Positions 63,191-64,000 of a stretch of DNA of 64,000 bases are shown in pieces. The notes under the pieces are model-generated. The model saw nothing but the letters and a program-made list of their open reading frames with translations, ran no database searches and was not told where the DNA came from. The stretch lies in the sequence record OR757436.1; one strand, written 5' to 3'. The position numbers were made by a program, and so were the translations under genes. This DNA comes from Escherichia phage vB-EcoP-XT73. Positions within the stretch are counted from its first letter, which is position 1. Every line of letters starts with the position of its first letter.

Positions 63191-63280
63191 AACTGCCCAT
63201 CTAACCTAATTCGGTGAAACTCTCTATGAGACAATACCGAGCAAGGACAGGATACTACCACCTTTTTACAGGGAGGTAGT

Positions 63281-63781
63281 ATGATAGAATATAAAAACAC
63301 TGGTTACTATGTAACCGAGTGTGGAGAGATTATTGGAAAACGTGGTTGGGTATTAAAGCCTTCAACTACTTCTGGTTATAAAGAAGTCAAGATTTGCGAA
63401 AATGGTGAAATTTCTTATAAAGGAGTTCACCAACTAGTAGCTGAATGTTATATTCCAAATCCTGACAATAAACCAGTAGTTAATCACAAAGATGGAAATA
63501 AACTTAACTGCCATCGAGATAATCTAGAGTGGTCAACTTATTTAGAAAACAGTATACATGCAGTCCAAACAGGATTACAGAAGACTGGAGTAGATCACTA
63601 TAATGCTGAACTAACTGAATCAGAAGTACATGCAATTTGCAAGCTTCTGCAAAACGGTTTACCTGTTAAACAAGTTTTCTATGAACTGTTAGATGCTGGT
63701 ATAATTGTTTATCCAACAAAGATAACTGATATTAAACGTCATCAATGCTGGAAAGAGATCTCATCTCAATACAGTTGGTAA
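63281..63781 (+). CDS. HNH homing endonuclease
   Basis: VVNHKDGNKLNCHRDNLEW HNH core; start codon lies in a hairpin with GGGAGG in the loop. Confidence 0.7.
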   Translation: MIEYKNTGYYVTECGEIIGKRGWVLKPSTTSGYKEVKICENGEISYKGVHQLVAECYIPNPDNKPVVNHKDGNKLNCHRDNLEWSTYLENSIHAVQTGLQKTGVDHYNAELTESEVHAICKLLQNGLPVKQVFYELLDAGIIVYPTKITDIKRHQCWKEISSQYSW

Positions 63782-64000
63782 CAGGTTAGTATTCTGTCCG
63801 TGTGTAACGACTATCCCCGATGAGTGTAGGGGAGTAGGGCGCAAGCTAATGGCGTTCGAAATGGTTGGCCTGTACGACGGTACAGGAAGATATAGTCTGT
63901 TCTGCATGGCGACATGCAGCAGTTCATAAGAGAACGGGCAGAAGTGTTGCGGCTTCTGTTGAACATTAAGATTCCATATCCGTGGAAGACTCTGAATGAG
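63782..64000 (+). other. non-coding structured region after the HNH gene (possible 3' part of an intron-like element)
   Basis: Stops in all three frames; perfect hairpins CCTGTAC-GACG-GTACAGG and CTGCATG-GCGA-CATGCAG. Confidence 0.3.

What the first reader, a model, noticed from the sequence alone, without database searches (positions are those of the whole stretch)
63191..64000. HNH endonuclease embedded in structured non-coding RNA next to the primase: possible intron-like mobile element
The primase ORF ends at 63190. The HNH gene's start codon is buried in a hairpin (ATACTACC...GGTAGTAT) with the SD in the loop, and the 220 nt after it are closed in all frames yet contain perfect 7-bp hairpins. 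This is the typical look of a group I intron carrying a homing endonuclease, or a free-standing homing endonuclease with structured flanks, inserted in or beside the primase-helicase locus. Together with the two other HNH genes (2128-2610, 7264-7665) it points to intense homing-endonuclease traffic in the replication module.
Basis: inference. Interest (0 to 1): 0.55.

Follow-up and report, generated by a model that had tools for sequence, protein, structure and literature searches.

The report
Group I intron splitting phage primase-helicase
The phage's primase-helicase gene is interrupted by a 786-base self-splicing-type (group I) intron that carries its own homing endonuclease gene; this is a well-known kind of selfish element, here in a gene and phage group where I found no earlier report of one.

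Summary
Window 63185-63970 (786 nt) is a group I intron of the phage IA2 type, inserted inside a single primase/helicase gene, not beside a primase gene.

- **Boundaries.** Intron-less relatives carry one uninterrupted 596-aa gene. The insertion starts after a U (GGGGU|AAGUAA) and ends in a G (UUAAG|AUUCC). Removing it gives a protein 100% identical to the intron-less homologue.
- **Ribozyme core.** All core helices are present: P1, P3-P9.2, the P3/P7 pseudoknot, P7.1/P7.2 and the conserved AAGAUAUAGUC segment. Twelve phage introns, including the T4 nrdD intron, support them by covariation: 89% of cells pair against about 40% in shifted controls, and 41 of 61 pairs show compensatory changes.
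- **Endonuclease gene.** The HNH ORF (63281-63781) sits in the P6 loop and resembles I-HmuI in sequence and predicted fold. It is under purifying selection (dN/dS 0.06).
- **Start-codon hairpin.** The hairpin is real. The ribosome-binding site lies in its stem, not its loop.
- **Distribution.** The same intron occurs at the same site in diverged metagenomic relatives. Among sequenced phages, 1 record carries it and about 101 carry the uninterrupted junction.

Splicing and homing are inferred, not shown. This is a new member of a known kind, of modest interest.

The parts
62252..63184 (+). Exon 1 of the primase/helicase gene (zinc-binding and TOPRIM primase part, codons 1-311). The last base, U63184, is the 5' splice-site U.
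   Evidence: Collinear with intron-less XT32 up to this base. Toprim_2 hit. T7 gp4 is the best PDB match for the spliced protein.
63185..63970 (+). Group I intron (IA2-type), 786 nt. It begins AAGUAA and ends with the terminal G (omega G) at 63970.
   Evidence: Absent from XT32 and about 100 other relatives. Core helices are supported by covariation. Profiles built only from other phage introns hit 63179-63243 (E=1e-12) and 63801-63973 (E=9e-38).
63188..63190 (+). In-frame UAA stop two codons into the intron. It ends the apparent 312-aa 'primase' ORF and would keep exon-1 ribosomes out of the core.
   Evidence: Conserved in all four lineage variants. This is a general feature of bacterial group I introns (PMC3073962).
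63181..63198 (+). P1: exon GGGU plus intron A (63181-63185) paired with the internal guide UGCCC (63194-63198). U63184 and G63195 form the wobble pair at the splice site.
   Evidence: 5/5 pairs in all four lineage variants. Aligns with P1 of the T4 nrdD intron and others.
63201..63206 (+). P3 5' strand CUAACC, pairing with GGUUGG at 63863-63868. Together with P7 it forms the pseudoknot.
   Evidence: All 6 pairs show compensatory changes and 100% of cells pair across 12 introns. Compensatory changes also occur in L021.
63210..63241 (+). P4 (63210-16/63235-41) enclosing P5 (63221-24/63228-31), with A-rich J4/5 and J5/4 junctions.
   Evidence: Also recovered by unconstrained folding of the ORF-deleted intron.
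63245..63257 (+). P6/P6a 5' strand GGACAGGAUACUA, pairing with UAGUAUUCUGUCC at 63787-63799 (13 bp). This helix closes the loop that holds the endonuclease ORF.
   Evidence: 13/13 pairs in the window, L025 and L017. L021 differs at many positions on both strands and still pairs at 11/13. Predicted in the minimum-free-energy fold.
63252..63282 (+). Hairpin that sequesters the ribosome-binding site AGGGAGG and the AU of the start codon. Its 5' strand overlaps the P6a 5' strand.
   Evidence: -13.7 kcal/mol, z=-3.3. Kept in lineage variants at 8/8, 8/8, 8/8 and 6/8 pairs. The ribosome-binding site stays paired in both alternative conformers.
63281..63781 (+). HNH homing endonuclease gene (166 aa), I-HmuI-like, in the P6 loop.
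   Evidence: Pfam HNH_3. I-HmuI (1U3E) at E=6.5e-6 by sequence. Predicted structure has pLDDT 93, and I-HmuI is the only significant PDB fold match, E=2.6e-7 over 161 columns. dN/dS 0.064 against the 84%-identical homologue.
63787..63799 (+). P6/P6a 3' strand. It starts 5 nt after the ORF stop codon.
63807..63900 (+). Catalytic core 3' half: P7 (63809-14/63892-97, extended by 63807-08/63899-900), P7.1 (63815-18/63829-32), P7.2 (63837-42/63852-57), P3 3' strand (63863-68), P8 (63869-75/63880-86) and J8/7 AAGAU (63887-91).
   Evidence: The Rfam Intron_gpI partial hit aligns GAAGAUAUAGUCU exactly. Covariation in P7.1, P7.2 and P8, and one compensatory pair in P7.
63902..63969 (+). P9 (63902-08/63913-19, GCGA loop), P9.1 (63922-25/63932-35), P9.2 (63939-44/63953-58) and probable P9.0 (UU 63900-01 with AA 63968-69).
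   Evidence: Compensatory changes in P9, P9.1 and P9.2. For P9.0, UU/AA in the window becomes CU/AG in L021 (my reading of the alignment).
63971..64000 (+). Start of exon 2 (helicase part): AUU CCA UAU CCG UGG..., coding IPYPWKTLNE. It continues beyond the window.
   Evidence: Collinear with XT32 from this base on. The DnaB_C profile starts at residue 311 of the spliced protein.

Best explanation
Window 63185-63970 is a mobile group I intron of the bacteriophage IA2 type. It interrupts a single T7-gp4-like primase/helicase gene of a Kuravirus phage at the first codons of the helicase domain.

Proposed mechanism:
- The pre-mRNA folds into the ribozyme: P1 with a U.G wobble at the 5' splice site, the P3/P7 pseudoknot, P4-P6, P7.1/P7.2, P8 and P9-P9.2.
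- An external guanosine attacks after U63184. The freed exon then attacks after G63970.
- This joins ...GCGGAGUGGGGU to AUUCCAUAUCCG... and restores the 596-aa reading frame ...AEWG-IPYPW....
- The P6 loop holds a 166-aa I-HmuI-like HNH endonuclease. Its ribosome-binding site and start codon are buried in a hairpin, which would keep translation low so that ribosomes do not unfold the ribozyme.
- In a mixed infection the endonuclease would nick or cut the intron-less allele (GAGTGGGGT|ATTCCATATCC) of a related phage. Repair from the intron-carrying genome then copies the intron in (homing).

Shown here: the insertion and its exact boundaries, the ribozyme architecture with covariation, homology to known self-splicing introns, the endonuclease family and fold, and purifying selection on exons, ORF and core.

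Inferred, not shown: actual splicing, endonuclease activity and target, homing, and translational damping by the hairpin.
For: 1. Intron-less XT32 has one 1791-nt gene. The alignment breaks at 63184/63185 and resumes at 63971, so the insertion is 786 nt, follows a U and ends in a G.
2. The conceptual spliced product is 596 aa and 100% identical to the XT32 protein. All 37 nucleotide differences are synonymous, on both sides of the junction.
3. Rfam Intron_gpI gives a partial hit at E=0.0024 that aligns P8, J8/7, P7 and P9.
4. The 3' core is 73-75% identical to the introns of Yersinia phage Berlin DNA polymerase (annotated as a joined CDS), T4 nrdD (I-TevII intron), nrdB and td. The 5' core is about 92% identical to introns in Pectobacterium, Vibrio and Klebsiella phage genes.
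5. Twelve-intron alignment A1: 89.4% of cells pair against 39-43% when partners are slid; 41 of 61 pairs show compensatory changes; 0 of 500 shuffles reach the observed values; P3 pairs in 100% of cells with 6 of 6 pairs compensatory.
6. Members of the same alignment with uninterrupted cores pass Rfam's gathering score: T4 nrdD 105 bits, phage 24-2-1 80 bits.
7. Profiles built without this sequence find exactly one 5' core (E=1e-12) and one 3' core (E=9e-38) in the 64-kb window.
8. Three further lineage variants from metagenomes sit at the same site in phages whose flanking sequence is only about 77% identical overall. They show compensatory changes in P3, P6/P6a, P7.2, P8, P9 and P9.2. Window against L017: the 3' core is 95% identical and the ORF 79%.
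9. HNH ORF: I-HmuI by sequence and fold; invariant H69, N81 and N90; dN/dS 0.064.
10. Folding of the ORF-deleted intron recovers P3, P4, P5, P6/P6a, P7.1, P7.2, P8, P9 and P9.1, z=-4.4.
Against: - No experiment or RNA-seq was available, so splicing is not demonstrated.
- The intact intron scores 22.8 bits against Rfam RF00028, below the gathering score of 50. I attribute this to the 500-nt ORF in P6 but could not test an ORF-deleted sequence against Rfam.
- P1 is short (4 exon pairs plus 1 intron pair), and only 2 nt separate P1 from P3, where relatives have 5-6 nt.
- P10 is weak.
- The window ends 30 nt into exon 2, so the rest of exon 2 was taken from the near-identical XT18 record, which is not identical to the window elsewhere.
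Confidence: 0.9

Rival explanations
1. The intron is a decayed relic that no longer splices. The phage would live with a split gene: a 312-aa primase, plus a helicase translated from the internal AUG just past the window (as the GenBank record of XT18 annotates it).
For: The XT18 record annotates two separate 'DNA primase/helicase' CDS, the second starting at an internal Met. P1 is short and the P1-P3 junction is unusually short. The Rfam score is below threshold.
Against: All core helices are intact and maintained by compensatory changes across lineage variants. The core is more conserved than the ORF: 95% against 79%. The ten exon-2 codons upstream of the internal Met (IPYPWKTLNE) are conserved at the protein level with only synonymous change. 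The internal Met is also present in intron-less genes, and I see no strong ribosome-binding site in front of it (my reading). The short P1-P3 junction is shared by all four diverged variants.
Confidence: 0.06
2. A free-standing HNH homing endonuclease gene with structured flanks sits between independent primase and helicase genes, with no ribozyme involved.
For: Free-standing HNH genes are common in this genome (2128-2610 and 7264-7665). In relatives another HNH gene sits directly upstream of the primase/helicase gene.
Against: The flanks are homologous, helix by helix, to known self-splicing introns, with strong covariation. The boundaries obey the U / terminal-G rule and restore the frame exactly. 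About 100 relatives have a fused gene.
Confidence: 0.02
3. The element is a different kind of intervening sequence, such as a group II intron, an intein or a bulge-helix-bulge intron.
For: None specific. Inteins are common in DnaB-type helicases (general knowledge).
Against: An in-frame stop two codons into the insert rules out an intein. There is no reverse transcriptase ORF and no Rfam group II match. The core matches group I.
Confidence: 0.01

Closest known systems
Bacteriophage T4 nrdD (sunY) group IA2 intron (encodes I-TevII)
   Same: Homologous ribozyme core. P1, P3, P4, P5, P7, P7.1, P7.2, P8 and P9 align column by column, with the same J8/7 AAGAUAUAGUC and L9 GNRA loop. The T4 intron scores 105 bits on Rfam RF00028.
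   Different: Different host gene (anaerobic ribonucleotide reductase). The T4 ORF is a GIY-YIG endonuclease annotated downstream of P9 rather than in the P6 loop. T4 has a longer P1 and a 5-6-nt P1-P3 junction, against 2 nt here.
Group I intron in DNA polymerase genes of T7-like phages (for example Yersinia phage Berlin; HNH ORF in the intron)
   Same: Best full-length DNA match of the 3' core: 73.5% identity over 90% of the query. The ORF sits in the same P6 loop, the host is a podovirus replication gene, and the CDS is annotated as joined across the intron.
   Different: Different host gene. The Berlin ORF is annotated endonuclease VII and shows no BLASTP similarity to this protein. P7.1 and P7.2 are shorter.
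I-HmuI, the HNH nicking homing endonuclease of the Bacillus phage SPO1 DNA polymerase intron (PDB 1U3E)
   Same: It is the only significant PDB match by sequence (E=6.5e-6) and by predicted fold (E=2.6e-7, 161 of 166 columns). Similar size (166 against 174 aa). N-terminal beta-sheet, HNH core, then helical C-terminal part.
   Different: Only 26% identity. Target site and nicking versus double-strand cutting are unknown here. Different host intron and phage.
I-PfoP3I intron of cyanophage Pf-WMP3 (PMC3428280) and the T4 td intron / I-TevI translational control (PMC3073962)
   Same: A group IA2 intron with a nicking HNH endonuclease in a replication gene of a podovirus. An in-frame stop follows the 5' splice site, and an RNA hairpin sequesters the endonuclease's ribosome-binding site inside the P6 loop, as in td.
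   Different: No intron-internal promoter signal above chance was found here, whereas from memory td uses a late promoter inside the intron. Here the 5' strand of the hairpin doubles as the 5' strand of P6a.

Membership tests
Group I intron (Rfam RF00028), subgroup IA2 (phage type) | Conserved core of paired regions P3-P8, including the P3/P7 pseudoknot and the P4-P6 domain | tested here: met
   All helices were located. Across 12 introns 89.4% of cells pair against about 40% in slid controls, 41 of 61 pairs are compensatory, and P3 is 6/6.
Group I intron (Rfam RF00028), subgroup IA2 (phage type) | 5' splice site after a U that forms a U.G wobble with the internal guide sequence in P1 | tested here: met
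   The insertion begins after U63184. GGGU(A)/(U)GCCC pairing holds in all four lineage variants.
Group I intron (Rfam RF00028), subgroup IA2 (phage type) | Terminal guanosine (omega G) as the last intron base | tested here: met
   G63970 is the last inserted base. A G occupies this position in the three other lineage variants and in most of the related introns whose 3' ends are aligned.
Group I intron (Rfam RF00028), subgroup IA2 (phage type) | Conserved J8/7 and P7 guanosine-binding region | tested here: met
   GAAGAUAUAGUCU matches the Rfam consensus exactly. The columns are invariant across 12 introns, and one compensatory U-A to C-G change occurs in P7.
Group I intron (Rfam RF00028), subgroup IA2 (phage type) | Extra helices P7.1 and P7.2 between P7 and the P3 3' strand (IA hallmark, from established classification) | tested here: met
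   P7.1 at 63815-18/63829-32 pairs in 100% of cells. P7.2 at 63837-42/63852-57 pairs in 94.7%. Both show compensatory changes.
Group I intron (Rfam RF00028), subgroup IA2 (phage type) | Reaches the Rfam gathering score (a detection threshold, not a defining structural feature) | tested here: not met
   22.8 bits against 50, E=0.0024, covering only the 3' half. The 501-nt ORF in P6 splits the core. Relatives in the same alignment with uninterrupted cores score 58-105 bits. An ORF-deleted construct could not be submitted to Rfam with these tools.
Group I intron (Rfam RF00028), subgroup IA2 (phage type) | Guanosine-dependent self-splicing that yields ligated exons | not testable with these tools
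   Needs an in-vitro splicing assay or RT-PCR. Indirect support: the spliced frame is 100% identical in protein to the intron-less gene, with 37 synonymous and 0 non-synonymous differences.
HNH homing endonuclease, I-HmuI-like (Pfam HNH_3) | HNH beta-beta-alpha-metal motif with the catalytic His and Asn residues | tested here: met
   PF13392 at 34.5 bits against a cutoff of 24.8. N68, H69, N81 and N90 are invariant in 30 homologues. Aligned to the I-HmuI motif.
HNH homing endonuclease, I-HmuI-like (Pfam HNH_3) | Extended multi-domain fold: N-terminal beta-sheet, HNH core, C-terminal helical DNA-binding part | tested here: met
   Model pLDDT 93.2. Foldseek finds 1U3E at E=2.6e-7, probability 1.00, 161 aligned columns. 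The TM-score is only 0.50, as expected for an elongated flexible protein.
HNH homing endonuclease, I-HmuI-like (Pfam HNH_3) | Site-specific cleavage or nicking of the intron-less allele, and homing | not testable with these tools
   Indirect only: presence/absence polymorphism at one exact site (1 against about 101 records), the same site in diverged phages, and purifying selection on the ORF.

The most novel reading that the evidence does not exclude
The intron may be more than a neutral parasite. It sits exactly at the primase/helicase domain boundary and has a stop codon two codons in. Unspliced transcripts would therefore yield a complete stand-alone primase fragment (312 aa), while spliced ones yield the fused 596-aa enzyme. 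Splicing efficiency could then set the primase to primase-helicase ratio, loosely like the two gp4 forms of T7. Persistence of the intron lineage at this one site in phages whose exons differ by about 23% would then reflect co-option, not only homing. A related idea is that the shared 5' strand of P6a and the start-codon hairpin couples ribozyme folding to endonuclease translation. Modelling gives that idea little support: the ribosome-binding site stays paired in both conformers.
Probability: 0.08. Interest if true: 0.55.

Novelty: new member of a known kind. Interest (0 to 1): 0.3.

Why it matters
**Annotation.** The public record of the near-identical phage XT18 lists two 'DNA primase/helicase' CDS, the second from an internal Met, plus an HNH gene and no intron. 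The gene product is almost certainly one 596-aa T7-gp4-like enzyme.

**Biology.**
- This adds the primase/helicase gene and the Kuravirus group (Gordonclarkvirinae) to the list of phage genes and lineages that host IA2 introns. No paper in the searched library describes one there.
- The lineage is rare among isolates (1 in about 100) but persists at one site in diverged relatives. Some of those relatives carry up to three group I introns in the same gene.
- Kuraviruses are used as candidate therapeutic coliphages. An intron-encoded endonuclease that cuts the intron-less allele could bias marker inheritance or competition in mixed infections and phage cocktails. This is my inference from what is known of other phage homing endonucleases.
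- The endonuclease is a new I-HmuI-like enzyme with a readily predicted target site.

Tried and rejected
- **Rfam at gathering thresholds.** Over the whole window it found only a tRNA. The intron shows up only in E-value mode, below threshold.
- **Exact-pattern scans of IMG/VR.** The intron-containing junction gave 0 hits and the intron-less junction 1 hit, too few kuraviruses to estimate prevalence. I used the phage GenBank collection instead.
- **Promoter/terminator scan of 62900-64000.** Nothing above chance: 3 promoter-like sites against 2.7 expected, and none upstream of the HNH ORF. There is no evidence for an intron-internal promoter.
- **Riboswitch-like switch.** I tested whether P6a formation releases the ribosome-binding site. 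The two conformers are within about 1 kcal/mol of each other, and the site stays paired in both. I dropped this as a main claim.
- **Other intron cores.** I looked for cores of this family near the other HNH genes and found none.
- **Identity of the window.** I first assumed the window was XT18 itself. It is not identical: 99.5-99.7% over most of the compared stretches, about 95% in one stretch, and different indel content.
- **Literature searches.** Searches for XT18, Kuravirus plus intron, phiEco32 plus intron, and group I intron plus primase/helicase found no description of this element.
- **My own coordinates.** My first coordinates for P5, P7 and P9.1 were off by one base. The parts list gives the corrected values.

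Full report
**What is in the sequence.** ORF listing confirms a 312-aa ORF at 62252-63190 with a weak Toprim hit. It also confirms a 166-aa ORF at 63281-63781 that matches Pfam HNH_3 at E=1.6e-8. It folds at -13.7 kcal/mol with z=-3.3. The predicted fold adds an inner stem (CCUU/AGGG), so the ribosome-binding site AGGGAGG is paired rather than exposed in the loop. The two perfect 7-bp hairpins downstream are at 63869-86 and 63902-19.

**Source and boundaries.**
- The region is 99.9% identical to Escherichia phage vB-EcoP-XT18 (OR757434.1, genus Kuravirus). That record is circularly permuted, so its end and start fall at window 63943/63944.
- The window is not XT18 itself. It differs by substitutions and indels elsewhere.
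- About 140 related records match only the first 934 nt of the query, up to window 63185.
- In the intron-less relative XT32 there is a single 1791-nt primase/helicase gene. Alignment with the window plus the XT18 continuation breaks at 63184/63185 and resumes at 63971.
- The insert is therefore 786 nt. It follows a U (GGGGU|AAGUAA) and ends in a G (UUAAG|AUUCC), the two group I boundary rules.
- Removing it gives a 596-aa protein 100% identical to the XT32 protein. All 37 nucleotide differences are synonymous and lie on both sides of the junction.
- The spliced protein matches T7 gp4 primase-helicase at E=1.5e-32. The DnaB_C profile begins at residue 311, so the intron sits at the first codons of the helicase domain.

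**Ribozyme.**
- Rfam gives a sub-threshold Intron_gpI hit (22.8 bits, E=0.0024). It aligns P8, the J8/7-P7 segment GAAGAUAUAGUCU and P9.
- BLASTN of the non-coding 3' part finds hundreds of phage records. They include the Yersinia phage Berlin DNA polymerase intron (CDS annotated as joined), the T4 nrdD, nrdB and td introns, and introns in Vibrio and Serratia phage reductase genes.
- The 5' part matches introns in Pectobacterium portal, Vibrio polymerase and Klebsiella terminase genes.
- I aligned 12 introns with the ORF loop removed (alignment A1) and tested a hand-derived structure: P1, P3, P4, P5, P7 as a pseudoknot, P7.1, P7.2, P8, P9, P9.1 and P9.2.
- In that test 89.4% of cells pair, against 39-43% when the 3' partners are slid by 1-3 columns. 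Compensatory changes occur in 41 of 61 pairs, and 0 of 500 shuffles reach the observed values. P3 pairs in 100% of cells, with all six pairs compensatory.
- Unpaired cells in P1, P4 and P9.2 appear to be mostly register shifts of the automatic alignment. This is my reading.
- Thermodynamic folding of the ORF-deleted intron independently recovers P3, P4, P5, P6/P6a, P7.1, P7.2, P8, P9 and P9.1, with z=-4.4.
- Alignment members with uninterrupted cores pass the Rfam gathering score: T4 nrdD 105 bits, phage 24-2-1 80 bits.
- Profiles built without the window sequence find exactly one 5' core (63179-63243, E=1e-12) and one 3' core (63801-63973, E=9e-38) in the 64 kb.

**Lineage variants.**
- A protein search found homologues of the HNH protein at 99%, 84% and 70% identity.
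- All are encoded on Kuravirus-like metagenomic contigs in the same arrangement: a 312-aa ORF, then the 166-aa HNH ORF, then a DnaB_C ORF.
- Overall DNA identity across the aligned gene is about 77% for the diverged contigs, so the same intron occupies the same site in clearly diverged phages.
- The four-way alignment shows compensatory changes in P3 (CUAACC/GGUUGG becoming CUACUC/GAGUGG).
- It also shows them in the 13-bp long-range P6/P6a helix that closes the ORF loop (GGACAGGAUAC becoming AAAUGUGAUAC, with matching changes on the 3' strand).
- P7.2, P8, P9 and P9.2 show them too, and probably P9.0, where UU/AA becomes CU/AG.
- Window against L017: the 3' core is 95% identical and the ORF 79%; the last 35 nt of exon 1 are 74% identical.

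**Endonuclease.**
- The best and only significant PDB match is I-HmuI (1U3E), the HNH nicking endonuclease of the SPO1 polymerase intron. It matches by sequence at E=6.5e-6.
- It also matches by predicted fold: model pLDDT 93.2, Foldseek E=2.6e-7, 161 aligned columns.
- The HNH residues are invariant in 30 homologues.
- dN/dS against the 84%-identical homologue is 0.064, so the ORF is maintained as a working gene.
- ORFs in several related introns are distant homologues at 26-47% identity over partial lengths. The Berlin ORF is unrelated.

**Control of translation (inference).**
- An in-frame UAA lies two codons into the intron, and the endonuclease's ribosome-binding site is buried in a hairpin. 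Both are features reviewed for bacterial group I introns, and for td/I-TevI in particular (PMC3073962).
- Comparable hairpins appear in the arall and phita32 introns (z=-4.1 and -3.5) but not in every relative.
- The 5' strand of the hairpin overlaps the P6a 5' strand, so the two structures compete.
- Constrained ensemble calculations put them within about 1 kcal/mol of each other. The ribosome-binding site stays paired in both. I therefore do not claim a switch.
- No promoter-like signal above chance lies upstream of the ORF.

**Distribution and literature.**
- In the phage GenBank collection, 101 records carry the uninterrupted junction and one (XT18) carries the intron.
- Full-text searches found no description of an intron in Kuravirus or phiEco32-like phages, or of a group I intron in a phage primase/helicase gene.

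**Verdict.** This is a genuine mobile group I (IA2-type) intron with an I-HmuI-like HNH homing endonuclease, inserted inside the primase/helicase gene. It is a new member of a well-known kind. It is useful for annotation and for understanding competition among kuraviruses, but it is not surprising to a specialist. Splicing, cleavage and homing remain to be shown experimentally.

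Noticed in passing
L017 2512-2794 and 3208-3715 (metagenomic Kuravirus-like contig ERZ28614411 scaffold_1906): This relative carries two further group I introns in the helicase exon of the same gene. Both pass the Rfam gathering score (87.7 and 80.4 bits), making three introns in one primase/helicase gene. The first extra one lies about 87 nt into exon 2, which I estimate falls within the Walker A (GSGKT) codons.
   Followed up: partly
L025 3794-4413 (Logan SRR20818748 contig, 76.8 kb): This contig has the same intron at 99-100% identity. 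It also has an extra 620-nt insertion with a 98-aa HNH ORF further along the helicase exon. L025 and L022 additionally carry an HNH gene (163 and 171 aa) abutting the start of the primase/helicase gene.
   Followed up: no
window 1-9037 against OR757434.1 13729-22500 (L016): The window is not collinear with XT18. Over the compared span the record is about 1.4 kb longer in net terms. One stretch is only 95% identical. The XT18 HNH gene at record 21391-21756 appears to be missing from the window, which suggests homing-endonuclease presence/absence differences between near-identical genomes.
   Followed up: partly
OR757434.1 58-885 (just beyond window 64000): The GenBank record annotates the helicase part as a separate CDS starting at an internal Met. 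This omits the ten exon-2 codons IPYPWKTLNE (window 63971-64000). It is probably a mis-annotation caused by the unrecognised intron.
   Followed up: yes
window 25859-26201: A perfect tandem repeat of a 90-nt unit, 3.8 copies, 100% matches. It surfaced as three identical weak profile hits spaced 90 nt apart. Its gene context was not examined.
   Followed up: partly
window 47781-47852: A tRNA gene (Rfam RF00005, 57 bits), the only Rfam gathering-level hit in the window.
   Followed up: no
L014 1442-1663 and 2035-2287; L015 431-680 and 1434-1652: The Vibrio phage S4-7 DNA polymerase gene and the Klebsiella phage ZH4 terminase (maturase B) gene each contain two group I introns that pass the Rfam gathering score. 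Both genes are annotated as several separate CDS fragments.
   Followed up: no
window 2128-2610 and 7264-7665: Two further HNH endonuclease genes (PHROG 99 and PHROG 3106). Neither has a group I core of this family or any Rfam intron hit nearby, so they are probably free-standing.
   Followed up: partly
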